A stretch of 64,000 nt of DNA from an uncultured Clostridium sp. (GTDB taxonomy: Bacteria; Bacillota; Clostridia; TANB77; CAG-508). Location: positions 29,463 to 93,462 of the forward strand of contig USEX01000001.1 of the NCBI GenBank assembly GCA_900553755.1. The letters are read 5' to 3'. The position numbers and the translations under genes were made by a program. The notes under the pieces are model-generated. The model did not search any database, had not been told where the DNA came from, and saw only the letters and a program-made list of their open reading frames with translations. This document shows positions 53,178-63,903 of the stretch, piece by piece; within the stretch, counting starts at the first letter, position 1; every line of letters starts with the position of its first letter.

Positions 53178-53948
53178 TTATTCAAATATACTTTCATATT
53201 CTAATGGTACAATATTTTCATATAATAAAGTAAACTGTGAATTTACTTGCTTATAATCATGATAATGTCCAAAATACCATCTTTTAAATGTGCATTTTTC
53301 TGAAATCTGCTGTAAATAGTCAGTTAAAACATCTCTTTTATATGTTGAATTTATTAATGCTTGTACATTTGTTGGGCAACAATGAGATATGATGTAATCT
53401 ACTTTGTAATTTATTTTTTCTAGATTTTTTATTCCATTTTCCATTTCTTGCTTTGTGGGAAGCTCTAAATCCCACCATGAAAAATCTCTAATTCTAAAAT
53501 ATGCTCCTCTTTTACGATACTCATATATTTTTTCTTCTTCATCTAAATTCAATATTCCATCTTGAATATCATGCGATTTAGCACCACCAAAAGCAAATAT
53601 TTTTTTATTATCAATATCAAAAATTTCTCCTCTCATTAAGTGTAATACTAAATCTCTTATCTTGTGTACTTTTCCACCTTTCCATTCTTCAATTGGATGA
53701 TTATATAATCTTGTATAATTTTCATAATTTCCATCTACAAACAATGTGGTAAAATTTTTATTGTCTAACCAATCTAGTAGCTCTTTTTCTCTGCTACTCT
53801 CTTCTTCAAATGTCCATACTCCACCAAAATCTCCACATATTATTACATAATCATCTTCCGTCATTTCTGATTGTATTGGAAATTTTTCTTCGGTAAATCG
53901 TTGAAAATCACTATGTGTATCGCCTGTAATGTATATCATAATTCTCAC
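53178..53948 (-). CDS. Calcineurin-like metallophosphoesterase
   Basis: The motifs YITGDTHSD, ICGDFGGVW, VDGNYENY and GHYHDY are present (GDxH / GDxxD / GNHE-like / GHxH). Confidence 0.8.
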   Translation of the reverse strand: MRIMIYITGDTHSDFQRFTEEKFPIQSEMTEDDYVIICGDFGGVWTFEEESSREKELLDWLDNKNFTTLFVDGNYENYTRLYNHPIEEWKGGKVHKIRDLVLHLMRGEIFDIDNKKIFAFGGAKSHDIQDGILNLDEEEKIYEYRKRGAYFRIRDFSWWDLELPTKQEMENGIKNLEKINYKVDYIISHCCPTNVQALINSTYKRDVLTDYLQQISEKCTFKRWYFGHYHDYKQVNSQFTLLYENIVPLEYESIFE

Positions 53949-53954
53949 CTTCTT

Positions 53955-54455
53955 TTAGAATTCTTCATTAGAGTAGTCTTTTCCAAATCTACTTGGAGTA
54001 AAATACTTAACTTCTCCCTTATCATTTACTGAAAAGATATGTAAACACAAAATTTCTGCTATTTCCTTTGGTATTCTTCTTAATGCAACTTGTGCTGATT
54101 CCCAATATAGTCCTAATCCATATTTATATGCATGATTTATTCCTGATATTTTTCCATCTGTTTTGGACATAGAATATCTTTTTACATCCATTCTTGTTAT
54201 TATTTGCCCTAAAGCATTTAGCCATCCCTCTCTATTGATTGACTTAGCAGATTTTGCATAGGATTTGCCTTTACACTCAATATAAAAATATTCACTATTT
54301 CTTTTACCACCAACTAATTTTATATCAACACCATGTTGATGTAATTCACTCTTTTTTACTTTTTCTTCATGCCAATTACCATTTTCTTTATTTATCATAA
54401 ATTCTATGATTTTGTCTACAATAAATTGTTCTGTGATTTTTTCATTCATTTGCAT
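53955..54455 (-). CDS. Small PD-(D/E)xK nuclease-fold protein (166 aa)
   Basis: It has the motif GVDIKLV ... EYFYIECKGK (D-x15-E-x-K). It lies 17 nt downstream of hsdR and 6 nt upstream of the phosphoesterase. Confidence 0.5.
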   Translation of the reverse strand: MQMNEKITEQFIVDKIIEFMINKENGNWHEEKVKKSELHQHGVDIKLVGGKRNSEYFYIECKGKSYAKSAKSINREGWLNALGQIITRMDVKRYSMSKTDGKISGINHAYKYGLGLYWESAQVALRRIPKEIAEILCLHIFSVNDKGEVKYFTPSRFGKDYSNEEF

Positions 54456-54472
54456 TAATCCCCTTTTATATA

Positions 54473-57400
54473 TTAGTTTTCTTCAATCATTCCTTTGCAT
54501 TGTAATTCTGCTTGTCTAATAACTAATTGAACTGCTGAATCTCTTTTAACTGGTGGATAATCATATTTTATTAATAGTTTTTTTATTTCATATCTCATTC
54601 TAGCTCTAGCATCTTTTCTAATATCCCAATCTATTGTCATATTTGAATTTATTGTATCTACTAATTCTTTTGCTATTTTTACTAAAGTTTCATCTTTCAT
54701 CAATTCTTTAACCTGAGGATCATTGCCTAATGCATCAAAAAAGGCTTTTTCTTCAACTGATAAATTATATTCATTTCCTGCTGCTAGTTCTTTTTCAATT
54801 TCGTTTTTTAGATTTATCATTTCTTGTATTATTTTTTCTATATCTTCTACACTTGTTCTTTCATTGTATGCTGTTGCTATTTTTTGAAATTTTGTAGAGA
54901 ATTTTTCTTGCATAACAATATTTTGTATTCCCACTTTTTCAACATAATCTTTTAATGCCTGATTCAAGATTTCTACTGCAATGTTCTTTTTTTGCATTTT
55001 TGCTATTTTATTCATCAATTCATCACTTAGAAGCATTATTCTATTACTATTTTGTACTTTTCCAATTTGTAACATTTCATCATCTTGGATTGCTCTTTCA
55101 AGCATTTTTCCAACATGTTCGTTAATTTCTTTGCTATCTATTGTATTTCCACTATTGCTTAACTTTTTTATAAATGATCTAACTGAAATAAAAAATAATA
55201 TTTCATCCTTTATTTCTTGTGTTAGTTCTCCTGCACATAATGAATATAAATTTTTACAATCATAACTATATTTTAAAAATTCTTTCTTAGTCTTTTCATC
55301 TTTTAAAACCCAATCTGCTCCTGCCATAATTATTTCATACTTATCACTATCTGTTGTTGTAGCAAAATGGCTATATATAAATCCATGAAATATATTTCTT
55401 ATTAATTCGATTTTGTCCATTAAAACTTTAACAATTTCCGTATTGTCTACTACGTTTCCTTGATCACGTTTTGTATAAGTCTTTAATGCATCTATTAACC
55501 ATCTTTTTAATCCAATATAATCTACAATTAGTCCTCCCTGTTTGTCTTTAAATACTCTATTTACTCTTGCTATTGCTTGCATTAAGTTATGTGCTTTCAT
55601 TGGCTTGTCTACATACATTGTCCCTAGTGATGGTACATCAAATCCAGTAAGCCACATATCCACAACAATTGCAATTTTGAATTCCGAATTATAATCTTTA
55701 AAGTCTTTTTCAAGTTGATGTTTATCTTTTGAAGAGCCAATTGCTTTTTGCATTTCTTCATCATCTTTATTATTTGATGTTATTACCATATGTATTTTAT
55801 TTTTCCATTCTGGCTTTAATTCTAAAAATTTTTTATACATTGTATATGCTGTTCTTCTTGAGTAAGCAACAACCATTGCTTTATTTGCAACTGTATTTTC
55901 AATATCACTATAATTTTTTATAATATCTTTTACTATAAGTTCTAATCTATCTGGATCTTCAATAATTTCTTGCATTTTTGCCATTTCTTTTTTAGATTCA
56001 TTTAATGTTTCTTCATCTACACCTTCATCCTTTTCAAGATATGTGTAATAATCGTCTATCTCATCTAATATCTTTTGGTTTAATCCAACTCTTGCCATCC
56101 TTGCTTCATACATAATCGGTACTGTTGCGCCATCGAGAATTGCTTGAGTCATATCATATGTATCTATTACATTTCCGAAAATTTCTGATGTTGACTTATC
56201 TTTTGTTTCGACTGGGGTACCTGTAAATCCAATATAAGTAGCATTTGGAAATGCTGTATGTAAATATTTTGCAGTTCCGTATTTTTTATATGCTATCATT
56301 TTTTCTTTATCAAATTTCATTGTAGCATCTATGCCGTAATGACTTCTATGTGCTTCATCAACTAAAACTAAAATATCATCTCTTTTACTAAATACTCCTG
56401 TTTCTTCTTCAAATTTTTGTAATGTTGTAAAAAATATTCCTCCTGATATTCTATTATCAAGCTTCTCATTTAAATCTGTCCTACTCTCAATTTGCACTGG
56501 TTTTTGTTTTAGAAATTCTGAACACTGTGAAAATGTATTGAATAATTGATCATCTAAATCATTTCTATCTGTAACTACAACAATACTTGGATTTTTTAAT
56601 ATTTTTATCATATTTGCTGAATAGAACACCATAGAAAAACTTTTACCTGATCCTTGTGTATGCCATAATATTCCTGCTTTTCCTGTTCTTTCGTTATAAG
56701 CTTTTTCTGTGCTTTTAATTGCTTTTTTTACACCAAAATATTGATGATATGCTGCTAAAATTTTATTATCTCCACTCCACATTATAAAGTTATTTATAAT
56801 GTCCATTATTCTGTCTTTTCTCATCATTCCATTAAATAATGTATTATGTGTTGCCATATTTTCTTTTACAACATCTGTATCTTCAATCTTTTTCCATTCT
56901 GAAAATCTACTCCATGGACTTGTTATAGTTCCTGCTCTTGCTTGTACACCATCACTCACTATTAAAAATTGATTATAATAAAATAATGTTGGAATATGTA
57001 CATTTTGATATCCTTTTAACTGGTTATATCCATCTTCTAATTTTACTTCTTCTCTCGTTGTGCTTTTTAATTCAATAACTACTAGGGGCATTCCATTAAT
57101 AAACACAATTATATCAGGACGTTTTTCACTTTCTTCAATAATTGTATATTGATTAATTGCTTTAAATGTATTTATTTCTATATTATTAAAATCAATTACT
57201 TTTATTGTTTTGTATCTAGTTGTTCCATCTTCTTGAATTGGAACTTTTATTCCTTCTAATAAATACTGTGTAAATTGTTTATTGTTTAATATTGTATTAT
57301 TATTGTCCAAATTCTTTATTAAACGGATAACTTCTTTAATATCTTCATTTGTAATATTTTTATTTAATTTTGTTATCGCTCTTTCTAAGTCATCATCTAG

Positions 57401-57511
57401 TATTACATTTGAATAATTTTCTCTTTCTAATTCATATCCATTTAATGTTTCATATCCTAAGTTTGTTAATAATTCCATTGTTATTTTTTCTAGTGTTGCT
57501 TCATCAAACAT
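54473..57511 (-). CDS. hsdR: Type I restriction enzyme R subunit
   Basis: It is 1012 aa with Walker A ILWHTQGSGKSFSMVF and DEAH box LVLVDEAHRSHYG. The nuclease motif region is VVIELKSTTRE. Confidence 0.9.
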   Translation of the reverse strand: MFDEATLEKITMELLTNLGYETLNGYELERENYSNVILDDDLERAITKLNKNITNEDIKEVIRLIKNLDNNNTILNNKQFTQYLLEGIKVPIQEDGTTRYKTIKVIDFNNIEINTFKAINQYTIIEESEKRPDIIVFINGMPLVVIELKSTTREEVKLEDGYNQLKGYQNVHIPTLFYYNQFLIVSDGVQARAGTITSPWSRFSEWKKIEDTDVVKENMATHNTLFNGMMRKDRIMDIINNFIMWSGDNKILAAYHQYFGVKKAIKSTEKAYNERTGKAGILWHTQGSGKSFSMVFYSANMIKILKNPSIVVVTDRNDLDDQLFNTFSQCSEFLKQKPVQIESRTDLNEKLDNRISGGIFFTTLQKFEEETGVFSKRDDILVLVDEAHRSHYGIDATMKFDKEKMIAYKKYGTAKYLHTAFPNATYIGFTGTPVETKDKSTSEIFGNVIDTYDMTQAILDGATVPIMYEARMARVGLNQKILDEIDDYYTYLEKDEGVDEETLNESKKEMAKMQEIIEDPDRLELIVKDIIKNYSDIENTVANKAMVVAYSRRTAYTMYKKFLELKPEWKNKIHMVITSNNKDDEEMQKAIGSSKDKHQLEKDFKDYNSEFKIAIVVDMWLTGFDVPSLGTMYVDKPMKAHNLMQAIARVNRVFKDKQGGLIVDYIGLKRWLIDALKTYTKRDQGNVVDNTEIVKVLMDKIELIRNIFHGFIYSHFATTTDSDKYEIIMAGADWVLKDEKTKKEFLKYSYDCKNLYSLCAGELTQEIKDEILFFISVRSFIKKLSNSGNTIDSKEINEHVGKMLERAIQDDEMLQIGKVQNSNRIMLLSDELMNKIAKMQKKNIAVEILNQALKDYVEKVGIQNIVMQEKFSTKFQKIATAYNERTSVEDIEKIIQEMINLKNEIEKELAAGNEYNLSVEEKAFFDALGNDPQVKELMKDETLVKIAKELVDTINSNMTIDWDIRKDARARMRYEIKKLLIKYDYPPVKRDSAVQLVIRQAELQCKGMIEEN

Positions 57512-57606
57512 AATTTGCCCCCTAAATTATATTATTTTATTACTATATTTATACTTTTTTCAGTTTTTCATTATTATATACTGCTTATTTGTCCATTTTT
57601 AATCAT

Positions 57607-57700
57607 ACAAATAGTAATTTGTATGATTATATTTCTATTTTATCTAAGTCTATTTCTCCACTCATAAGTTTTGGTAGTAATGCATCTCTTAACTGTGTTA
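57607..57700. repeat. ~94-bp repeat copy A at 3' end of hsdS1 (direct repeat of 59876-59969), includes 12-bp palindrome AATCATACAAATagtaATTTGTATGATT
   Basis: The first 73 bp are identical to the second copy and the remainder is about 85% identical. Confidence 0.85.
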
Positions 57701-58811
57701 ATGATTGATTTTGTTCACTATTTAAAATCATTTTGCTATAAATTGGATTACATTTTTCATAAAATGTCTCTAATTCATCTTCTTTAGGAATTGGAATTTC
57801 AATATTTTCAATATCTGATGTGCTAATATTAGGTTGAGCACTACCATATCCTTTTGAATTTAGCGTATTTTGCATATCCTCTAATAGAAATAAACAATTT
57901 AAATATAATTCACTATATTTATCATTTCCTCTTATAACACCAACACGTTGATTTAAGAAATATCTATAATCTTGTCCATATAAATATCCTGTTTTTCCTA
58001 ATTCAGCCCCTGTCATTGCTATAATTACATTACCTCTTAATAGTAAAAACTTTTTGTCTACTTTGTCAGCCACTTCATCATATACACATTGAGTATTATC
58101 TATATCAACTCCGCTTGCACTTATGTTTTTTATTTTTAAAATTTTGTTGTTTGTAGTCTCATTTAGTAAATCTTTACCTTTAAATGCGTAACCACCTTGA
58201 ATTTTTCCTATATCATTAACATTCCCATTTCGCACAAATTCATTATTATAATAATGTTCCTTAATATATTGTTCTAAAATCTTGTACAAATTATCATTTG
58301 TTTTATTATTTAATCCAATTTTATTATCTATATTATTTAATATTTTTACAATTTTATCTTGAATATTTCTAGCTGGTAAATCTATTTCTATATTTTCAAA
58401 AGTTGATTTATTAAGTATTGGCATTGTTGATCCGCCAGCGATTCCTTTTAAATATTCTTTTTTATCACTAAAATAATAATATAAATAGTGAGGATTGCAT
58501 ATATCTTTAATATCTGTTATAGAATTGATTTGCTGATTTGTAATTCCTGGTCTATTAATCATATATACCTTTCCCATATCAGAGCCTATACAACTGATAC
58601 ATACACTATCTTTTTTAATTATTTGTGATTTAAATTTATCTTCTACAAAAGATGTTAAATATCGTTCCGTGCTCTCTATATATTTGCAATTATCTTTCAT
58701 ATCCCTTGGAGTAACAAACAAATACTTATCAGCTAGTTCTGAAAAATTTTCAAGTTGTTTAGTTGATGGAGTTTTTCCAGTTACAATTTTACCTATATCT
58801 TTTAATTTCAT
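57627..58811 (-). CDS. hsdS: Type I R-M specificity subunit (full length, two TRDs)
   Basis: It is 394 aa with the central conserved KTNDNLYKILEQ and the C-terminal LRDALLPKLMSGEIDLDKIEI. Confidence 0.85.
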   Translation of the reverse strand: MKLKDIGKIVTGKTPSTKQLENFSELADKYLFVTPRDMKDNCKYIESTERYLTSFVEDKFKSQIIKKDSVCISCIGSDMGKVYMINRPGITNQQINSITDIKDICNPHYLYYYFSDKKEYLKGIAGGSTMPILNKSTFENIEIDLPARNIQDKIVKILNNIDNKIGLNNKTNDNLYKILEQYIKEHYYNNEFVRNGNVNDIGKIQGGYAFKGKDLLNETTNNKILKIKNISASGVDIDNTQCVYDEVADKVDKKFLLLRGNVIIAMTGAELGKTGYLYGQDYRYFLNQRVGVIRGNDKYSELYLNCLFLLEDMQNTLNSKGYGSAQPNISTSDIENIEIPIPKEDELETFYEKCNPIYSKMILNSEQNQSLTQLRDALLPKLMSGEIDLDKIEI

Positions 58812-58822
58812 AAAACTTTCTC

Positions 58823-59824
58823 CTATCCTATATACTTTCTATGTGATATTTTCACATTATTTTGATTTACCATTGCATAATGCATAGTTGTCTCTATTTT
58901 TACATGTCCTAATAATTTTTGTACTTGTTCTATTGGCATACCTTTATCAATTGCCATTGTTGCTAGTGTTCTTCTAAATTTATGTGGATGAACTTTATTT
59001 ATTTCTGTTTCTAATCCTATTTTTCTAACTATCAATTCAATTCCAGCAATTGATAGTCTTTGGTACGGCTTATTTTTCGAAACAAATAATGCTTCATTCT
59101 CATCTTGTCGAGTGTTTATGTATTGTTTTAGATGTATTTTTGTTCTTGCATCAAAATATACTTCTCTTTGCTTATTTCCTTTTCCAAATGCTTTACAAGA
59201 TCGATCTTCAAAATTAATATCTGAAATATTCAATTTTATTAATTCTCCAACTCTTATTCCCGTTGAATATAATAATTCAATTAATACTAAATCTCTAATA
59301 CAATTACTTGTATCTCGTAATTTTTCAAGATTTTCATCTGTTAAAGTTTCTTTTATTATTGTTGGTGTTTTTACCTTATGTATTCTTCTAACGGGACTCT
59401 TTATAATATAGTCTTCATCCTCTAACCAAGCAAAAAAACTAGATAAAACTCTTCTTAAATTATCAATAGTTACTGCATTACATTTTGTATTTTCTTTGTA
59501 ATCTGCTAAATATTTCCTGATTTCTTCTGTTTGAATCTCTTTAATTGGCTTATCTATTGTATTTATTAATTTCTCGATGATTTCTCTGTAGTATTTTAAA
59601 GTTCTAGTTGAACAACCCTCTACTTCTTTTGCAGAAAGAAAAATATTTATATAATTATCATTGGTTTCTTTTATCTGTTGTTTTTCTTTTTCATCAGTTA
59701 AAATATTTATTTCAACTTTTTTTAAATTATTCTCAAGTGTTTCTTTTAATTTTTCTAATTGATATTGAGTTAATACAAGTGCCATATCATTTGTAATGTT
59801 AATAATTATGTCTGTTTTAATCAT
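58823..59824 (-). CDS. Tyrosine site-specific recombinase (phage-integrase family) embedded in hsdS locus
   Basis: The catalytic C-terminus is HPHKFRRTLATMA ... LLGHVKIETTMHYAMV (R, HxxR and Y present). It is 333 aa. Confidence 0.85.
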   Translation of the reverse strand: MIKTDIIINITNDMALVLTQYQLEKLKETLENNLKKVEINILTDEKEKQQIKETNDNYINIFLSAKEVEGCSTRTLKYYREIIEKLINTIDKPIKEIQTEEIRKYLADYKENTKCNAVTIDNLRRVLSSFFAWLEDEDYIIKSPVRRIHKVKTPTIIKETLTDENLEKLRDTSNCIRDLVLIELLYSTGIRVGELIKLNISDINFEDRSCKAFGKGNKQREVYFDARTKIHLKQYINTRQDENEALFVSKNKPYQRLSIAGIELIVRKIGLETEINKVHPHKFRRTLATMAIDKGMPIEQVQKLLGHVKIETTMHYAMVNQNNVKISHRKYIG

Positions 59825-59875
59825 ATAATATTCCTCCTCTAAAGAATATTATATCATTTTATGTAAATTAGTTAA

Positions 59876-59969
59876 ACAAATAGTAATTTGTATGATTATA
59901 TTTCTATTTTATCTAAGTCTATTTCTCCACTCATAAGTTTTGGTAGTAGTGTATCTCTTAATTGCTCTA
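59876..59969. repeat. ~94-bp repeat copy B at 3' end of hsdS half-cassette
   Basis: It matches 57607-57700 in the same orientation. Confidence 0.85.
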
Positions 59970-60483
59970 ATGTTTCATTTTGAGAAATATTTAAAAAATA
60001 CTTATTTTGTATTTGTTTTGCAATGTTATTGTATTCTTTTAAAATAGCATCACTTGGAACTTTAACAATAATGTCTTTAATATTGTCAATCGTTATTTGT
60101 GGTTGTGCAGAACCGGTTGTATACGAATAATAAGGATTTAATAATGATAATTCTTTTAGATAAAAATAATACTTTCTATCACATTCTAATATCAATGAAT
60201 TATTAGTAACAAAGCAGTTTGGCTTTGTAAATATGACTTTGCCTGATGCTGCACCTCTACATGAAACAAGAACTTGCGATTCATCATACATTTTTTCTTT
60301 ATAAAACCCTATAATCCCGTTACCACCATACACTGGATAACCTTCTGATAATATATTCTTTGTTGGTAGTCCTTTTCCGTATTTAATATTACAAAATTCT
60401 TTTAAAGTTAATTCTTTAATGTAATTATTTTTATTATTATCATTAAAATATTTAAAAAATAACTGTTTAGACAATTCTAACAA
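59896..60483 (-). CDS. hsdS: hsdS half-cassette (central conserved region + TRD + conserved C-terminus); TTG-initiated or silent
   Basis: The frame reads TNDNL-LELSKQLFFKYF ... LRDTLLPKLMSGEIDLDKIEI. The last 18 residues are near-identical to hsdS1. Confidence 0.7.
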   Translation of the reverse strand: MLELSKQLFFKYFNDNNKNNYIKELTLKEFCNIKYGKGLPTKNILSEGYPVYGGNGIIGFYKEKMYDESQVLVSCRGAASGKVIFTKPNCFVTNNSLILECDRKYYFYLKELSLLNPYYSYTTGSAQPQITIDNIKDIIVKVPSDAILKEYNNIAKQIQNKYFLNISQNETLEQLRDTLLPKLMSGEIDLDKIEI

Positions 60484-60535
60484 ATTATCATTTGTTTAAT
60501 TCTTAAGCCACATTATATAACAAATTATCATTTGT
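60480..60535. repeat. 17-bp direct repeat aacaaattatcatttgt x2 flanking a 23-bp spacer (40-bp frameshifting insertion in hsdS2); a third copy lies at 58286-58301 in hsdS1
   Basis: Each copy encodes the conserved central TNDNL. The upstream half reads TNDNL-LYNVA-stop and the downstream half reads TNDNL-LELSKQ in a different frame. Confidence 0.8.
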
Positions 60536-61018
60536 CTGAATATTTAATTCTATTTTTTTATCAATATCAAATAATACTTTTGATATTTTCTTTTGCTGCG
60601 ATTTATCAAAATCTAGAATCTCTATATTTTCCAATTCTTTTCTATTTATAGAATCAAATACTGTTCCAGTAGATTTCATTTTAATTTCTTTTATAGAATT
60701 TTTCAGCAAATAATATAAATATTGATTATTACCATCTTTCATTTCTATTGAACATAGACCTCTGCCAATACATATGTCTTTATTAGCTATATTCAAATCC
60801 CCTACCGGAGCTCTTACACTCATTAATACTGAATTTTTTTTCCCAATTTTTTTTGGTTCTGTTGTCCAAGTATCAATTGTTGGATATAAAAAATTAAAAG
60901 TTTTATTCCCCTGTAAAAAAGGAATCCCTCTTCCATTATTATTGTAAGAACTTCCACTTGGAGATTGTCCCATATTAATATCTGCTATTTCCTTTAATTT
61001 AATTTTATTAAACTGCAT
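60503..61018 (-). CDS. hsdS: hsdS half-cassette (N-terminal TRD + central conserved region), truncated by stop after TNDNLLYNVA
   Basis: It starts MQFNKIKLKEIADINMGQSP, which is typical of an HsdS N-terminus, and ends IDKKIELNIQTNDNLLYNVA. The tracked ORF extends to 61075. Confidence 0.7.
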   Translation of the reverse strand: MQFNKIKLKEIADINMGQSPSGSSYNNNGRGIPFLQGNKTFNFLYPTIDTWTTEPKKIGKKNSVLMSVRAPVGDLNIANKDICIGRGLCSIEMKDGNNQYLYYLLKNSIKEIKMKSTGTVFDSINRKELENIEILDFDKSQQKKISKVLFDIDKKIELNIQTNDNLLYNVA

Positions 61019-61043
61019 TTTATACCTACCTTTTTTGATTATT

Positions 61044-61970
61044 CTACCACTGAAATATAATTTCATCACTTTCATTTGTAACTTTTATAAATTCTTTTGT
61101 TTCATCTAAAATAACATTAATATTTTTTCTATCTTCTAGTTTACATTTTATTATAACAACGTTGTTATCTTCGCATTCTTCAAATTTAATATTTTTTATT
61201 CTTACTATTGATTTTCCTAATGCATTACTAATTTTTTCTGAAAAATACTCTGTTCTTGAAAACTCTATATACTCAGATAAATCCCTTAAATTGTATTCTT
61301 TACAGATAAAATCAACAATATCTGTATCGTTCTTTGCACTTGTAGCTTTACCTCTTCTTTCTTTTATTTCATCATTCCAATTTAAGCCATTAAATATATT
61401 ATCATTAGTCGCAATTATATATTCAGAATTTTCTTTCTCCATCTTTTCTTTAATACTTTCTAATATAACAACATCTTTAAATCCAGCATCACTAAATTTT
61501 TTGTTATTAGTTCCTCCAAAAAAGAATGGTCTCTTCTTTTGAATAGCTCTTTCTATAATGGGATAAAATTTATCTTTGCTTGGATATGATAAAACTTCCA
61601 TATATTCTTTCTCTTTTGAAATATATTTATTGAAATTCGGCTTTAAATAATCCTCGTACTCTTTTACATTAGAATATCTATTTCTAATAATATTAATGTC
61701 ATATCCAACTTTTACAATATCTGATTTTATTGAATTATACCCATCATCTAAATTATCTAACTTTTCTTGTATATTTTTGTACTCTTCAATATAATGTTTA
61801 TATATTTCATCCAATACTATTTGTGGAATAATTATTTTAAAATTATTATAACCATTATATGTAATAAATTTTTTTAATCTAGCATATACATTATTAAATT
61901 TAAATTCAAATAATTTCTTGTTTTGAATTTCTATTACATTTGTATCCAAAAATATATTTACTTTTCTCAT
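61044..61970 (-). CDS. PIN-like domain protein (308 aa) between hsdM and hsdS
   Basis: The N-terminal NIFLDTNVI, KDVVILESI and IIATNDNIF segments carry the acidic residues of a PIN/DUF4935-like fold. Its start overlaps the hsdM stop (ATGA). Confidence 0.45.
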   Translation of the reverse strand: MRKVNIFLDTNVIEIQNKKLFEFKFNNVYARLKKFITYNGYNNFKIIIPQIVLDEIYKHYIEEYKNIQEKLDNLDDGYNSIKSDIVKVGYDINIIRNRYSNVKEYEDYLKPNFNKYISKEKEYMEVLSYPSKDKFYPIIERAIQKKRPFFFGGTNNKKFSDAGFKDVVILESIKEKMEKENSEYIIATNDNIFNGLNWNDEIKERRGKATSAKNDTDIVDFICKEYNLRDLSEYIEFSRTEYFSEKISNALGKSIVRIKNIKFEECEDNNVVIIKCKLEDRKNINVILDETKEFIKVTNESDEIIFQW

Positions 61971-63484
61971 ATTTCATATCCTATTGCTTTCAAATTGTTT
62001 TTTATTTCTTCATCTAGTTTTGCACTCTCTTGCATTTGCTCTGTCAATTTTGATGTTAAGTCTTTCATTTTCTCTTCAAAAGGCATACCATCGTCTTCAA
62101 CTTCCTTTGTTCCAACATATCTTCCTGGTGTTAAGACATAGTTGTTTTCTTTTATTTCAGAAATATCAGCTACTTTGCAAAATCCTGCAATATCTTCGTA
62201 ATTTACATTATTAATAAAATGATGATATGTACTTGAAATTTTATTAATATCTTCATCAGAAAGTTCTCTTAACTTTCTTGTAACCATATTTCCCATTTCT
62301 CTTGCATCAATAAATAATGTTTTTTCAGTTTGCTTTTTATTTCTATTTATAATCCAAATACTACAAGGAATTGTAACTGTATAAAATAAATTTGATGGCA
62401 TTGCTAAAATACAATCTACTAGATCTGCTTCTAATATATTTTTTCTTATTTCTCCCTCTCCTGAGGTATCAGAAGATAATGCTCCATTTGCTAATATTAT
62501 TGCTGCTTTACCATTTATTGATAATTTATCTATCATATGTTCTACCCATGCCATATTGGCATTTCCTTTAGGTGGTATTCCATACTTCCATCTTGGGTCT
62601 TGCAATAATTTTTCTTGTCCCCAATCACTTATATTAAATGGTGGATTTGCTAAAATAAAATCGGCTTTTAATCCTTTATGTAAATCATTTTGAAATGTGT
62701 CATCTGCAAATTTTCCAATATCACCATTTAAACTTCTAATTGCTAAGTTCATTTTTGCTAATTTCCATGTGGTTGGATTCTTTTCTTGTCCATATATTGC
62801 TAAATCTTGTACTTTCCCTTGATGTCTTTCAATAAATTTTGTACTTTGTACAAACATTCCTCCTGATCCACAACATGGATCATATATTCTTCCTTTATAT
62901 GGCTCTATCATTTCTACCATTGTTCTAACAAGACATGCCGGAGTATAGAATTCTCCACCTTTTTGTAATTCTTTTGCTGCAAATTCTCCTAAGAAGTATT
63001 CATATATTCTTCCTAAAATATCTTTATCTTGAGCTTCTTTACTTCCAATTTTTATATTTGTAAATAAATCTATTAATTCTCCAAGATTTACGTTTCTATA
63101 ATCTGGGCTGTTATACTCTTTTATTAATACTCCCTTTAATGATGGATTTTCTTTTTCTATTTCATCAAGTGCTTCGTCTATATATTGTCCTATATTTGCA
63201 TCTTTAGAATGTGCATTTAAATATTCCCATCTTGCTTTAGCTGGAACATAAAAGATATTATCCATTGTATATGAATCTCTATCTTCTTCCATTCCATCTC
63301 CATTTTCAACTAATTGGCGATATCTTTCTTCAAATGCATCAGATATATATTTTAAAAATATTAATCCCAATATTATAAATTTATAACTAGATACTGGAAC
63401 TGCTCCTCTCATTTTATCAGCTGCAGCATATAATTTTTTTTCTAGTTCTTGTAACTCTTCTTCACTATTCATTTTATCCTCCAA
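61967..63484 (-). CDS. hsdM: Type I R-M N6-adenine methyltransferase
   Basis: It is 505 aa with motif IV ILANPPFNISDW and motif I YDPCCGSGGMFV. The HsdM_N region is present. Confidence 0.9.
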   Translation of the reverse strand: MEDKMNSEEELQELEKKLYAAADKMRGAVPVSSYKFIILGLIFLKYISDAFEERYRQLVENGDGMEEDRDSYTMDNIFYVPAKARWEYLNAHSKDANIGQYIDEALDEIEKENPSLKGVLIKEYNSPDYRNVNLGELIDLFTNIKIGSKEAQDKDILGRIYEYFLGEFAAKELQKGGEFYTPACLVRTMVEMIEPYKGRIYDPCCGSGGMFVQSTKFIERHQGKVQDLAIYGQEKNPTTWKLAKMNLAIRSLNGDIGKFADDTFQNDLHKGLKADFILANPPFNISDWGQEKLLQDPRWKYGIPPKGNANMAWVEHMIDKLSINGKAAIILANGALSSDTSGEGEIRKNILEADLVDCILAMPSNLFYTVTIPCSIWIINRNKKQTEKTLFIDAREMGNMVTRKLRELSDEDINKISSTYHHFINNVNYEDIAGFCKVADISEIKENNYVLTPGRYVGTKEVEDDGMPFEEKMKDLTSKLTEQMQESAKLDEEIKNNLKAIGYEI

Positions 63485-63597: not shown

Positions 63598-63903
63598 TTA
63601 CCACTTATTTTGTAACTCATTAATTACATTCCATACCTTTCCTATTTCTTGTTTCACCTCACTTAAATCCACAGTATAAATCCTTCCACTATTCGACAAA
63701 TACGTTAATTGATTTATATTATTTCCTATCCTTCTAAATTCTGATACAACTTCATTTAATCCATCAACTATAACTATCTCTTTATCTAAACCTTGTTCAA
63801 TCAAATATTCTGATAAACTTAGTTTAGCAATTTTGCTTTTCTCAATCAATCCGCTCTTCTCTTTTTCACTAACTCTAATTGTTATAATTTTATCTTTCTT
63901 CAA
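63598..63903 (-). CDS. mobC: Second MobC-like RHH relaxosome accessory protein
   Basis: It has an RHH-like IITIRVSEKEKSGLI and the MobC motif IGNNINQLTYLSN (compare IGNNLNQIAHKAN at 22521-22835). It is 101 aa. Confidence 0.65.
   Translation of the reverse strand: MKKDKIITIRVSEKEKSGLIEKSKIAKLSLSEYLIEQGLDKEIVIVDGLNEVVSEFRRIGNNINQLTYLSNSGRIYTVDLSEVKQEIGKVWNVINELQNKW

What the first reader, a model, noticed from the sequence alone, without database searches (positions are those of the whole stretch)
61044..61970. PIN-like nuclease gene embedded between hsdM and hsdS
A 308-aa protein with an N-terminal PIN-like acidic signature (FLDTNVI, ILESI, ATNDN) is translationally coupled to hsdM. It overlaps the first hsdS cassette. 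This is the position occupied by the anticodon nuclease PrrC in the E. coli prr type I locus. It suggests an R-M-guarded abortive-infection nuclease that is released when anti-restriction proteins inhibit the Hsd complex.
Basis: partly seen in the sequence, partly recalled or inferred. Interest (0 to 1): 0.55.

Follow-up and report, generated by a model that had tools for sequence, protein, structure and literature searches.

The report
PIN nuclease gene inside type I restriction operon
A real gene for a PIN-type nuclease sits between the methylase and specificity genes of a type I restriction-modification operon, an arrangement conserved across many bacteria and one archaeon, which suggests a backup nuclease tied to the restriction complex, though its function is untested.

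Summary
The ORF at 61044-61970 (minus strand, 308 aa) is a real gene. It matches Pfam PIN_12 (formerly DUF4935) at E=3e-19, keeps the PIN acidic residues D9, E55, D161/D166 and D190, and folds as a PIN domain plus a small beta-rich C-terminal domain. Its ATG overlaps the hsdM stop codon (ATGA).

Two details of the finding are wrong. The overlap with hsdS comes from taking the longest ORF; the likely hsdS start is 61018, 25 nt downstream. PrrC lies between hsdS and hsdR, not between hsdM and hsdS.

The main result is context. Twenty-two of 24 genome and plasmid loci, and every sampled metagenomic lineage down to about 21% identity, have hsdM-PIN_12-hsdS. These include Akkermansia, Endomicrobiaceae, Bdellovibrionales and a Woesearchaeote. 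Closely related hsd systems lack the gene or carry a YhcG/DUF1016 nuclease in the same slot, so restriction does not need it. A second PIN_12 lineage in Bacillales lies after hsdR and carries a copy of the HsdR C-terminal tail.

I read it as an Hsd-linked accessory nuclease, probably a latent RNase of the PrrC or Ronin type. The guard mechanism is untested, and an autonomous defence protein like Cosus is a serious rival. I found no published description of this linkage.

The parts
61044..61970 (-). PIN_12 (DUF4935) family gene, 308 aa plus TAG stop
   Evidence: ORF. Pfam PF16289 at E=3.2e-19. AF2 model with pLDDT 85.8 and pTM 0.79. Homologues. dN/dS 0.20-0.29.
61371..61970 (-). N-terminal PIN nuclease domain (aa 1-200) with a long helical insert (about aa 50-120). 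Conserved residues are D9, T10, N11, E55, D161, G163, F164, K165, D166 and D190.
   Evidence: The Pfam match covers residues 6-191. These residues are invariant in 27 of 27 hsd-linked loci and in 40 sequences down to about 20% identity. Foldseek finds Rrp44 PIN 5k36_K (E=2.7e-4), Nmd4 PIN, PRORP and Rae1, and a BFVD 'PIN like domain' protein at E=1.4e-11.
61047..61370 (-). C-terminal domain (aa 201-308): three short helices and a five-stranded beta sheet. No known family. It evolves faster than the PIN core.
   Evidence: Secondary structure from AF2. No Pfam, PDB or PHROGs match. Mean pairwise identity is 21% against 35% for the PIN core. dN/dS is 0.35-0.59 against 0.21-0.24. hhalign finds no relation to the HsdR tail (probability 0.4%).
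61967..61970 (-). ATGA overlap of the hsdM stop codon and the PIN_12 start codon (translational coupling). An AGGA Shine-Dalgarno-like site lies at 61979-61982.
   Evidence: Sequence. Overlaps of 4-11 nt or gaps of 14 nt or less occur in every homologous locus with called genes where PIN_12 directly follows hsdM.
61967..63484 (-). hsdM (type I methyltransferase). The recorded gene call is 501 aa, starting at 63472.
   Evidence: Pfam HsdM_N and N6_Mtase, E=3e-110. Gene call. PDB relatives 3khk, 7vru and EcoR124 M.
60503..61018 (-). First hsdS half-gene (one target-recognition domain). The probable start is 61018, 25 nt after the PIN stop, with an AAGGTAGG ribosome-binding site at 61025-61032.
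   Evidence: Pfam Methylase_S. Sequence. The 171-aa gene call is in L002.
59896..60483 (-). Second hsdS half-gene (TTG start). The junction with the first half contains a duplicated 18-mer, ACAAATGATAATTTGTTA.
   Evidence: Pfam Methylase_S. Junction sequence. Repeat family D2.
58823..59824 (-). Tyrosine recombinase between the hsdS copies (hsdS shuffling module)
   Evidence: Pfam Phage_integrase at E=3e-37 and SAM-like N domain. The hsdS arrangement differs among contigs that carry an identical PIN protein.
57627..58811 (-). Full-length second hsdS copy (394 aa)
   Evidence: Pfam Methylase_S, two domains, E=5e-41. A 129-nt direct repeat is shared with the 3' end of the first hsdS.
54473..57511 (-). 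hsdR (1012 aa). It has an intact PD...ELK nuclease motif and the conserved C-terminal tail at aa 957-1002.
   Evidence: Translation (…RPDIIVFINGMPLVVIELKS…). Recorded Pfam families HSDR_N, ResIII, SWI2_SNF2, T1R_D3-like and T1RH-like_C. EcoR124I HsdR is the best PDB relative. Tail alignment.

Best explanation
The ORF encodes a PIN_12-family, metal-dependent nuclease with an intact active site, most likely an endoribonuclease. It is a dedicated accessory component of a type I restriction-modification operon.

Proposed mechanism:
1. It is translated in step with HsdM and HsdS from one operon.
2. It most likely associates with the Hsd complex and is held latent there.
3. It acts as a second-line effector when the R-M complex is perturbed, for example by phage anti-restriction proteins, and stops translation (abortive infection).
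4. The fast-evolving C-terminal domain would be the docking or sensing module.

What is shown: gene reality, PIN family and fold, intact catalytic residues, operon coupling, cross-phylum conservation of the hsdM|hsdS position, dispensability for R-M, and the existence of a sister lineage fused to an HsdR tail.

What is inferred: binding to Hsd, latency, the trigger, and RNA as the substrate.

The confidence of 0.45 applies to the full mechanism. That the gene is a dedicated type I-linked accessory PIN nuclease I hold at about 0.9.
For: Family and fold:
- Pfam PIN_12 at E=3e-19.
- D9, E55, D161, D166 and D190 are invariant in 27 of 27 linked loci and in 40 diverse sequences.
- The AF2 model (pLDDT 85.8) hits PIN domains of Rrp44 and Nmd4.

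Operon coupling:
- ATGA overlap with hsdM, and a ribosome-binding site plus 25-nt spacer before hsdS.
- No terminator-like site on the gene strand between hsdM and hsdR.

Conserved position:
- 22 of 24 genome and plasmid loci, and all sampled metagenomic lineages down to about 21% identity, have hsdM-PIN_12-hsdS.

Co-inheritance and selection:
- Mantel r=0.78, with 0 of 5000 permutations reaching it.
- Purifying selection, but about five times more relaxed than on HsdM, and most relaxed in the C-terminal domain.

No separate inhibitor:
- No antitoxin-like ORF lies next to the gene.
- One locus has hsdM-PIN-hsdS with no hsdR within 8 kb.

Link to the Hsd complex:
- About 25 clusters of 470-490-aa PIN_12 proteins in Bacillales carry the HsdR C-terminal tail. 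Evidence: PF11867 at 33.8 bits against a cut-off of 26.8; hhalign probability 98%, E=8e-14; BLASTP to this window's HsdR aa 957-1002 at E=1e-5.
- These fusion genes lie directly after hsdR in 3 of 3 loci.

Precedents:
- PrrC is masked by EcoprrI.
- RonA is caged by HsdMS and triggered by Ocr and ArdA.
- Cosus shows that a PIN_12 protein can give anti-phage defence that depends on conserved PIN-domain residues (T12A, D14A and D96A mutants).
Against: - There is no direct evidence of binding to HsdM, HsdS or HsdR, of toxicity, or of substrate.
- The window protein lacks the HsdR-like tail (hhalign probability 0.4%), so the fusion evidence comes from a sister lineage.
- Cosus, a single-gene PIN_12 cassette, protects E. 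coli against T7 when expressed alone from a plasmid, so Hsd partners are not generally required by the family.
- The M|S slot behaves as a cargo site. It is empty in most related systems and holds YhcG/DUF1016 in a system about 79% identical. It holds both YhcG and PIN_12 in L042-44.
- Deep discordance between the HsdM and PIN trees suggests allele exchange.
- At least one PIN_12 member (L028) is not linked to hsd genes.
Confidence: 0.45

Rival explanations
1. Autonomous single-protein defence. The PIN_12 protein senses infection through its own C-terminal domain and acts alone, like Cosus. It sits in the hsd operon only for co-expression and co-transfer, as cargo in a permissive slot.
For: - Cosus (Brc24) alone gives complete T7 resistance, dependent on conserved PIN-domain residues.
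- The slot is interchangeable or stackable with YhcG/DUF1016 and is empty in most related systems.
- The literature lists other cargo genes between type I core genes: DUF1016, RhuM, GIY-YIG and Fic (PMC9881135).
- PIN_12 C-terminal regions vary (beta-rich domain, HsdR tail, PdaC/DUF3298), as expected for sensor modules.
- L028 is not hsd-linked and lies next to a large protein with a weak STAND NTPase match.
Against: - A free-standing defence gene should scatter across defence islands. This lineage is instead fixed immediately after hsdM, tightly coupled, in nearly every locus across phyla.
- A sister lineage has acquired an HsdR tail, which is hard to explain without interaction with the Hsd complex.
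Confidence: 0.3
2. Auxiliary nuclease of the restriction reaction itself. PIN_12 docks on the type I enzyme and degrades nucleic acid during restriction, for example phage transcripts or R-loops met by the translocating enzyme, or cleaved DNA ends. Alternatively it tunes hsd mRNA levels for restriction alleviation.
For: - Stoichiometric co-expression with HsdM and HsdS.
- The HsdR-tail fusion lineage sits right after hsdR.
- Some branches of the PIN-like superfamily act on DNA flaps (Matelska 2017, PMC5499597).
Against: - HsdR here keeps its own PD-(D/E)xK motif.
- Systems 55-80% identical work without any slot gene or with a different nuclease.
- PIN_12 is frameshifted or truncated next to intact hsd genes in L033, L035 and L036.
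- PIN_12 belongs to the VapC-like group, whose members are typically RNases.
Confidence: 0.12
3. Addiction or selfish module. The PIN nuclease is a toxin whose neutralisation depends on continued hsd expression, and it mainly stabilises the hsd locus or mobile island rather than defending against phage.
For: - PIN domains are the commonest type II toxins (established knowledge; cites this).
- No separate antitoxin gene is present, so HsdM or HsdS could serve as one.
- The locus lies next to a MobC/NikA-like gene.
- The relative in B. thuringiensis is on a plasmid.
Against: - There is no VapB-like partner, and the protein is twice the size of VapC toxins.
- R-M systems already behave as addiction modules.
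- Apparently disrupted PIN_12 copies (frameshifted or truncated) beside intact hsd genes are tolerated.
Confidence: 0.08

Closest known systems
Pfam PIN_12 / DUF4935 (PF16289), VapC-like group of the PIN-like superfamily (Matelska et al. 2017, PMC5499597)
   Same: Full-length match above the gathering score. It has the conserved acidic residues, the helical insert after strand 2, and an unassigned alpha/beta C-terminal region of similar size.
   Different: [quoted passage not shown] Here, and in nearly all sampled relatives, the gene is operonic inside type I R-M loci.
PrrC anticodon nuclease in the E. coli EcoprrI type IC locus
   Same: A nuclease gene embedded in a type I hsd operon. It is the model for an R-M-masked abortive-infection effector released by a phage anti-restriction factor.
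   Different: The proteins are not homologous. PrrC is an ABC-ATPase plus a HEPN-type nuclease, and PADLOC and Pfam give no PrrC signal here. PrrC lies between hsdS and hsdR and this gene lies between hsdM and hsdS. No activator is known for this gene.
Ronin (RonA + HsdS + HsdM; Silas et al., bioRxiv 10.1101/2023.04.06.535777)
   Same: An effector tightly linked to hsdM and hsdS. RonA is toxic alone, suppressed by HsdMS, and triggered by Ocr, ArdA and Aop1. The B. thuringiensis relative has hsdM-PIN-hsdS with no hsdR nearby.
   Different: RonA is a 61-aa membrane peptide, not a nuclease. Ronin usually lacks hsdR, whereas the window locus has an intact hsdR.
Cosus (Brc24), a single-gene integron-cassette defence with a PIN12 domain (bioRxiv 10.1101/2024.07.02.601719)
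   Same: Same Pfam domain family. Anti-phage activity was shown experimentally and depends on conserved PIN-domain residues (T12A, D14A, D96A).
   Different: Cosus is a stand-alone cassette tested without any hsd genes alongside it.
YhcG/DUF1016 PD-(D/E)xK and other 'between core CDS' cargo genes of type I loci (RhuM/DinD, GIY-YIG, Fic; PMC9881135, PMC3424549)
   Same: They occupy the same M|S slot. In C. estertheticum pCF005-B a YhcG gene replaces PIN_12 between flanks that are 75-79% identical.
   Different: A different nuclease superfamily. The function of those cargo genes is also unknown.
VapBC type II toxin-antitoxin systems
   Same: PIN fold with four acidic residues, presumably an RNase.
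   Different: No adjacent antitoxin gene. The protein is 308 aa with an extra C-terminal domain, against about 130-150 aa for VapC.

Membership tests
Pfam PIN_12 / DUF4935 (PF16289) | Profile HMM match above the curated gathering score | tested here: met
   70.4 bits against a cut-off of 32, E=3.2e-19, residues 6-191 matching profile positions 1-170 of 172.
Pfam PIN_12 / DUF4935 (PF16289) | Conserved acidic metal-binding residues of the PIN active site | tested here: met
   D9, E55, D166 and D190 are invariant and D161 nearly so (at least 90%) in 40 sequences. All five are invariant in 27 of 27 linked loci. They are also kept in the 24 longer PIN_12 proteins checked.
Pfam PIN_12 / DUF4935 (PF16289) | Long helical insert after strand 2, and an extra alpha/beta C-terminal region (Matelska 2017) | tested here: met
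   The AF2 model has helices 50-87 and 102-120, and a C-terminal part with helices 217-251 and five strands at 255-307.
PIN fold (three-dimensional) | Predicted structure superposes on solved PIN domains | tested here: met
PrrC anticodon nuclease | N-terminal ABC-ATPase-like domain plus C-terminal HEPN-type nuclease domain | tested here: not met
   PIN_12 is the only Pfam hit. There is no PADLOC hit, and that library covers known defence systems.
PrrC anticodon nuclease | Gene located between hsdS and hsdR of a type IC locus | tested here: not met
   This gene lies between hsdM and hsdS. The prr order is hsdM-hsdS-prrC-hsdR (PMC3014915).
PrrC anticodon nuclease | Latent in complex with the Hsd proteins and activated by a phage anti-restriction factor | not testable with these tools
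   This needs co-purification and Ocr, ArdA or Stp challenge experiments. The only indirect support is the HsdR-tail fusion in a sister lineage.
Ronin (RonA-HsdMS decoy) | Small transmembrane effector RonA | tested here: not met
   The protein is a 308-aa soluble-type PIN protein. The AF2 model shows no transmembrane helix pattern.
Ronin (RonA-HsdMS decoy) | hsdM and hsdS present, hsdR absent | tested here: not met
   An intact hsdR lies at 54473-57511. One relative, L037 in B. thuringiensis, lacks hsdR within 8 kb.
VapBC toxin-antitoxin | Small PIN toxin with an adjacent cognate antitoxin gene | tested here: not met
   The neighbours are hsdM and hsdS with no small ORF between them. The protein is 308 aa.
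Cosus (Brc24) | PIN_12 domain protein that confers phage resistance as a single gene | tested here: inconclusive
   The domain family is shared. The Brc24 sequence could not be retrieved, and no phenotype can be tested here.
Type I restriction-modification system (host operon) | HsdM, HsdS and HsdR with their characteristic domains and the HsdR nuclease motif | tested here: met
   Pfam matches for HsdM and HsdS are and the recorded HsdR families. The PD...ELK motif is visible in the HsdR translation.

The most novel reading that the evidence does not exclude
PIN_12 proteins are a widespread, unrecognised fourth subunit of type I restriction-modification complexes in bacteria and archaea. The profile search found 810 clusters at 50% identity. 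On this reading, they are nucleases docked on the HsdM2S core, through the beta-rich C-terminal domain in the M|S-slot lineage and through a borrowed HsdR tail in the post-hsdR lineage. They fire when the complex is blocked by anti-restriction proteins. This would extend the PrrC/Ronin 'anti-anti-restriction' principle from a few E. coli cases to a general, modular feature of type I systems.
Probability: 0.35. Interest if true: 0.75.

Novelty: new variant of a known kind. Interest (0 to 1): 0.55.

Why it matters
R-M-guarded suicide effectors are so far known from only a few E. coli examples (PrrC, Ronin, and PARIS in trans). If PIN_12 is Hsd-associated, hundreds of type I systems in gut Firmicutes, Verrucomicrobia, Proteobacteria and DPANN archaea would carry a built-in second line of defence against phage anti-restriction proteins.

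The hypothesis is easy to test: a four-gene operon, point mutants at D9 or D190, and Ocr or ArdA challenge. The result would also give a genomic context to the uncharacterised Pfam family PF16289 and to the Cosus defence. It would fill a gap in PADLOC, which gave no hit for this protein. It would also define the hsdM|hsdS junction as a slot where alternative nucleases (PIN_12, YhcG) are exchanged.

Tried and rejected
Searches that found nothing:
- PADLOC and NCBIfam gave no hit for the protein, and PHROGs only a non-significant one (E=0.099).
- A sequence search of the PDB found no hit.
- Phage genome records and IMG/VR viral contigs hold no relative, so there is no sign of a phage origin.
- All ten full-text literature searches found no paper that places PIN_12/DUF4935 in hsd loci.

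Tools and sources that were unavailable:
- The Brc24 (Cosus) sequence was not retrievable from the supplement.
- The paper on the EcoR124I HsdR C-terminal domain could not be fetched. The role of that tail in assembly with the methyltransferase therefore rests on my recollection of Grinkevich et al. 2018 (JBC) and Gao et al. 2020 (Nat Microbiol).

Tests with negative or uninformative results:
- I tested whether the window protein's C-terminal domain is an HsdR-like tail or matches the C-terminal half of the fusion proteins. It is neither (hhalign probabilities 0.4% and 0.2%).
- The promoter scan is uninformative in this AT-rich DNA (80 sites found, 79.9 expected).

Ideas rejected:
- A VapBC-type toxin-antitoxin reading (no antitoxin gene, wrong size).
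- A chance ORF.
- PIN_12 as a replacement for a dead HsdR nuclease; the HsdR motif is intact.
Full report
**1. The observation**

The window holds a 308-aa ORF on the minus strand at 61044-61970. Its first codon overlaps the hsdM stop codon (…GAA ATA TGA read as ATG AGA…, an ATGA overlap), and an AGGA lies 8 nt upstream.

FLDTNVI contains D9, ILESI contains E171 and ATNDN contains D190. All three fall on invariant or near-invariant columns of the family alignments.

Two details do not hold:
- The 32-nt overlap with hsdS exists only if hsdS starts at the first ATG of the longest ORF (61075). An ATG at 61018 (MQFNKIKLKEI…) has AAGGTAGG 6 nt upstream and leaves a 25-nt spacer after the PIN stop codon. 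On a second contig carrying the same locus the recorded hsdS gene call is the shorter, 171-aa form.
- PrrC is not in this position. The prr order is hsdM-hsdS-prrC-hsdR (PMC3014915).

The gene is not a chance ORF:
- It matches Pfam PIN_12 (PF16289, formerly DUF4935) at E=3.2e-19, 70.4 bits against a cut-off of 32.
- Homologues reach E=1e-193.
- dN/dS against relatives that are 93%, 84% and 67% identical is 0.26-0.29. HsdM gives 0.05-0.06 in its comparisons with the 93% and 84% relatives' loci.

**2. The protein**

An AlphaFold2 model built on 16 homologues has mean pLDDT 85.8 and pTM 0.79. It shows three parts:
- a PIN core, with strands at residues 4-8, 44-49, 124-127 and 183-187;
- a long helical insert at about residues 50-120;
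- a separate C-terminal domain, with helices at 217-251 and a five-stranded sheet at 255-307.

Foldseek against the PDB returns PIN domains: Rrp44 5k36_K (E=2.7e-4, probability 0.99), Nmd4, PRORP, Rae1/YacP and Utp23. The best viral match is a protein annotated 'PIN like domain', at E=1.4e-11.

The acidic residues expected of an active PIN nuclease are D9, E55, D161/D166 and D190. D9, E55, D166 and D190 are invariant and D161 nearly so in 40 sequences down to about 20% identity, and all five are invariant in 27 of 27 hsd-linked loci.

The C-terminal domain has no match in Pfam, in the PDB by sequence, or in PHROGs. It is the fastest-evolving part. Mean pairwise identity is 21% against 35% for the PIN core, and dN/dS is 0.35-0.59 against 0.21-0.24.

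PADLOC and NCBIfam do not recognise the protein. Matelska et al. 2017 first assigned DUF4935 to the VapC-like PIN group. They gave its function as unknown and described the genes as usually monocistronic.

**3. The locus**

All genes are on the minus strand, in this order:
- a MobC/NikA-like gene (63598-63903);
- hsdM;
- PIN_12;
- two hsdS half-genes (60503-61018 and 59896-60483);
- a tyrosine recombinase (58823-59824);
- a full hsdS (57627-58811);
- hsdR (54473-57511);
- a 166-aa ORF.

HsdR keeps its PD…ELK nuclease motif, so PIN_12 does not replace a dead nuclease. No terminator-like site lies on the gene strand between hsdM and hsdR.

The window is part of a 101,875-bp metagenome contig (JGI 3300013900). 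The nearest named genome is the MAG 'Firmicutes bacterium CAG:321', whose PIN protein is 93% identical.

**4. Conservation of the context (the main result)**

Every homologue whose neighbourhood I could read at 84%, 56%, 55%, 36% and 28% identity lies between hsdM and hsdS.

A scan of one genome per species found 23 loci, and the plasmid collection added one more (B. thuringiensis pBT62A). In 22 of these 24 loci the PIN_12 gene directly follows hsdM and precedes hsdS or, on short contigs, the contig end. The loci come from Clostridia, Lachnospiraceae, Oscillospiraceae, Endomicrobiaceae, Candidatus Enterousia, Akkermansia, Bdellovibrionales, Bacteroidales and a Woesearchaeote. The two exceptions are:
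- L018, with the order hsdM-hsdS-PIN-hsdS;
- L028 from Acidobacteriota, which is not hsd-linked and lies next to a 1352-aa protein with a weak STAND NTPase match.

Three still more distant lineages, at about 21% identity to the window protein, are also in the M|S position (L039, L040 and L042).

A profile search of 1.84 billion representative proteins finds 810 clusters at E<=1e-3 and 385 at E<=1e-10.

Across 27 non-redundant loci, HsdM and PIN distances correlate (Mantel r=0.78; 0 of 5000 permutations reach it). PIN diverges much faster, with mean identity 27% against 60% for HsdM. Some deep pairs are discordant, which suggests occasional allele exchange.

**5. The gene is accessory, and the slot is modular**

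HsdM relatives on plasmids at 55-60% identity mostly have hsdS directly after hsdM.

The clearest case compares metagenomic locus L009 with Clostridium estertheticum plasmid pCF005-B (L038). The two share the HTH gene (75% amino-acid identity), HsdM (79%), HsdR (78%) and a PC4-like gene (77%), and their DNA is collinear at 74-76% identity. The gene between hsdM and hsdS is PIN_12 in one and an unrelated YhcG/DUF1016 PD-(D/E)xK nuclease in the other.

In L042-44 both occur in tandem: hsdM-YhcG-PIN_12-hsdS. An AAA_15/AAA_21 ATPase gene then follows in the S|R slot, the position PrrC occupies in the prr locus.

PIN_12 is frameshifted or truncated next to intact hsd genes in L033, L035 and L036. 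These are MAG contigs, so assembly errors cannot be excluded.

Published surveys already list DUF1016, RhuM/DinD, GIY-YIG and Fic genes 'between core CDSs' of type I loci (PMC9881135; PMC3424549). None of the ten literature searches found PIN_12 described in this role.

**6. A second, independent link to type I enzymes**

Among the longer PIN_12 proteins, a Bacillales subfamily of about 25 clusters (470-490 aa) carries a C-terminal match to PF11867, the C-terminal region of HsdR. It includes Paenibacillus, Brevibacillus, Bacillus paranthracis and Fictibacillus. The evidence for the tail is:
- P0151 scores 33.8 bits against a cut-off of 26.8, E=3e-8.
- Profile-profile comparison of the fusion tails with the HsdR C-termini of my loci gives probability 98.1%, E=7.8e-14, over 59 columns. 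The shared motif is N-x-T-[VI]-D-W…A-x-M-R…I-K…L.
- The P0151 tail aligns to aa 957-1002 of this window's HsdR at E=1e-5.
- All checked fusion proteins keep the PIN catalytic residues.

In 3 of 3 loci these genes lie immediately after hsdR, in hsdM-hsdS-hsdR-PIN_12 operons.

From memory, and not verified here because the papers could not be fetched, the HsdR C-terminal domain of EcoR124I is needed for assembly with the methyltransferase. A PIN_12 nuclease that has borrowed this tail is fusion-type evidence that such nucleases dock onto the type I complex.

The window protein does not have this tail (hhalign probability 0.4%), so the inference is by analogy between sister lineages. Two other long members carry PdaC/DUF3298 domains instead. 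The family therefore looks like a constant PIN effector with variable C-terminal adaptor or sensor modules.

**7. Mechanism**

*Shown.* The gene encodes an active-site-intact PIN_12 nuclease. It is co-transcribed and translationally coupled with hsdM and hsdS, co-inherited with them across phyla, dispensable for R-M, and under purifying selection with a fast-evolving C-terminal domain.

*Inferred, best reading (about 0.45).*
- The protein associates with the Hsd complex and is kept latent.
- It acts as a second-line effector when the complex is perturbed, as PrrC is by EcoprrI and Stp, and as RonA is by HsdMS with Ocr or ArdA.
- Its substrate is probably RNA.
- Supporting points are the fixed position, the lack of any antitoxin gene, an hsdR-less hsdM-PIN-hsdS locus, and the HsdR-tail fusions.

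*Main rival (about 0.3).* The protein is an autonomous defence protein that merely rides in a permissive operon slot. Cosus (Brc24), a single-gene PIN_12 integron cassette, gives complete T7 resistance when expressed alone in E. coli. The T12A, D14A and D96A mutants lose most of the protection. The slot also accepts other cargo genes.

*Minor rivals.* An auxiliary nuclease of the restriction reaction, or a regulator of hsd mRNA (about 0.12), and an addiction module (about 0.08).

**8. Comparison and novelty**

The protein is a member of Pfam PIN_12; every defining feature tested was met. It is not a member of the PrrC, RonA or VapBC families, because defining features were tested and not met.

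It may work like PrrC or Ronin, but that cannot be tested with these tools. I rate it a new variant of a known kind, namely accessory effectors embedded in type I R-M operons. The protein family and the general theme are known. I did not find in the literature the near-obligate cross-phylum linkage of PIN_12 to the hsdM|hsdS junction, the slot swap with YhcG, or the HsdR-tail fusion lineage.

Interest is 0.55. A specialist would not be surprised by another R-M-embedded nuclease. The breadth of the linkage, the fixed position and the fusion evidence do make a general 'type I R-M with a built-in backup nuclease' hypothesis directly testable.

Noticed in passing
window 57500-61100: The locus has an hsdS shuffling module in which all parts face the same way: two hsdS half-genes, a tyrosine recombinase and a full hsdS. 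The hsdS 3' ends share a 129-nt direct repeat (57599-57727 and 59868-59996, 88% identical), each with a near-palindromic 30-mer (TAATCATACAAATAGTAATTTGTATGATTA). Three copies of the central 'TNDNL' repeat (ACAAATTATCATTTGT) are present. Direct rather than inverted repeats suggest exchange by excision, duplication or gene conversion rather than inversion.
   Followed up: partly
window 60483-60503: The first hsdS is split into 171-aa and 195-aa halves at the central conserved region. The 18-mer ACAAATGATAATTTGTTA occurs twice, 22 nt apart, around an in-frame TAA. The same split recurs in relatives (L002, L004, L005; in L014 the first half is likewise short), while L003 has an intact 374-aa gene. 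This may be a recombination scar or a functional pair of half-HsdS proteins.
   Followed up: partly
L003-L006 (contigs carrying the identical PIN protein P0006): The hsdS region differs between samples although PIN_12 is identical. L004 carries a tandem duplication of the recombinase plus two hsdS halves. This indicates active rearrangement downstream of the PIN gene.
   Followed up: no
window 53955-54455 and 53178-53948 (minus strand): A 166-aa ORF lies 17 nt after hsdR, with weak NOV_C and REase-like matches (E=0.005) and a weak PADLOC PDC-M28B hit. A 253-256-aa ORF follows, with a weak metallophosphoesterase match. They occupy the post-hsdR position, where the Bacillales PIN_12-HsdR-tail genes sit, and may be further accessory genes.
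   Followed up: partly
L042-L044: One type I operon holds three accessory genes: hsdM - YhcG/DUF1016 - PIN_12 - hsdS - AAA_15/AAA_21 ATPase (596 aa, in the PrrC position) - hsdR.
   Followed up: no
L003, L005, L012 (and gaps of 0.7-1.3 kb in L017, L019, L020, L032, L034): An unannotated 215-222-aa gene with no Pfam match lies between hsdS and hsdR in several PIN_12-containing loci. This is the slot PrrC occupies in the prr locus.
   Followed up: partly
L037 (Bacillus thuringiensis plasmid pBT62A, NZ_CP044979.1, 62127-65698): The locus has hsdM - PIN domain protein (WP_141552299.1) - hsdS with no hsdR within about 8 kb, a 'masterless' arrangement like Ronin. DUF6037 and an ABC-three-component system lie downstream.
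   Followed up: partly
P0143, P0155 (representative proteins, 420-426 aa): These PIN_12 proteins are fused to PdaC and DUF3298 domains. From memory, this domain pair also forms the ligand-binding part of the anti-sigma factor RsiV. It is another variant C-terminal module, possibly a sensor. Their genomic context could not be looked up.
   Followed up: no
L039: A PIN_12-containing type I operon lies in a defence island with QueC, QueF, a TGT-like gene and an Ogg/HhH glycosylase (possibly 7-deazaguanine DNA modification), plus ThsB_TIR and SLATT genes upstream and a Lar-like restriction-alleviation gene downstream.
   Followed up: no
window 63598-63903 (minus strand): A 101-aa MobC/NikA-like relaxosome accessory protein is encoded just upstream of hsdM, with no relaxase visible before the window ends. 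The same gene precedes hsdM in L001 and L002. It hints that the hsd island is, or was, part of a mobilisable element.
   Followed up: no
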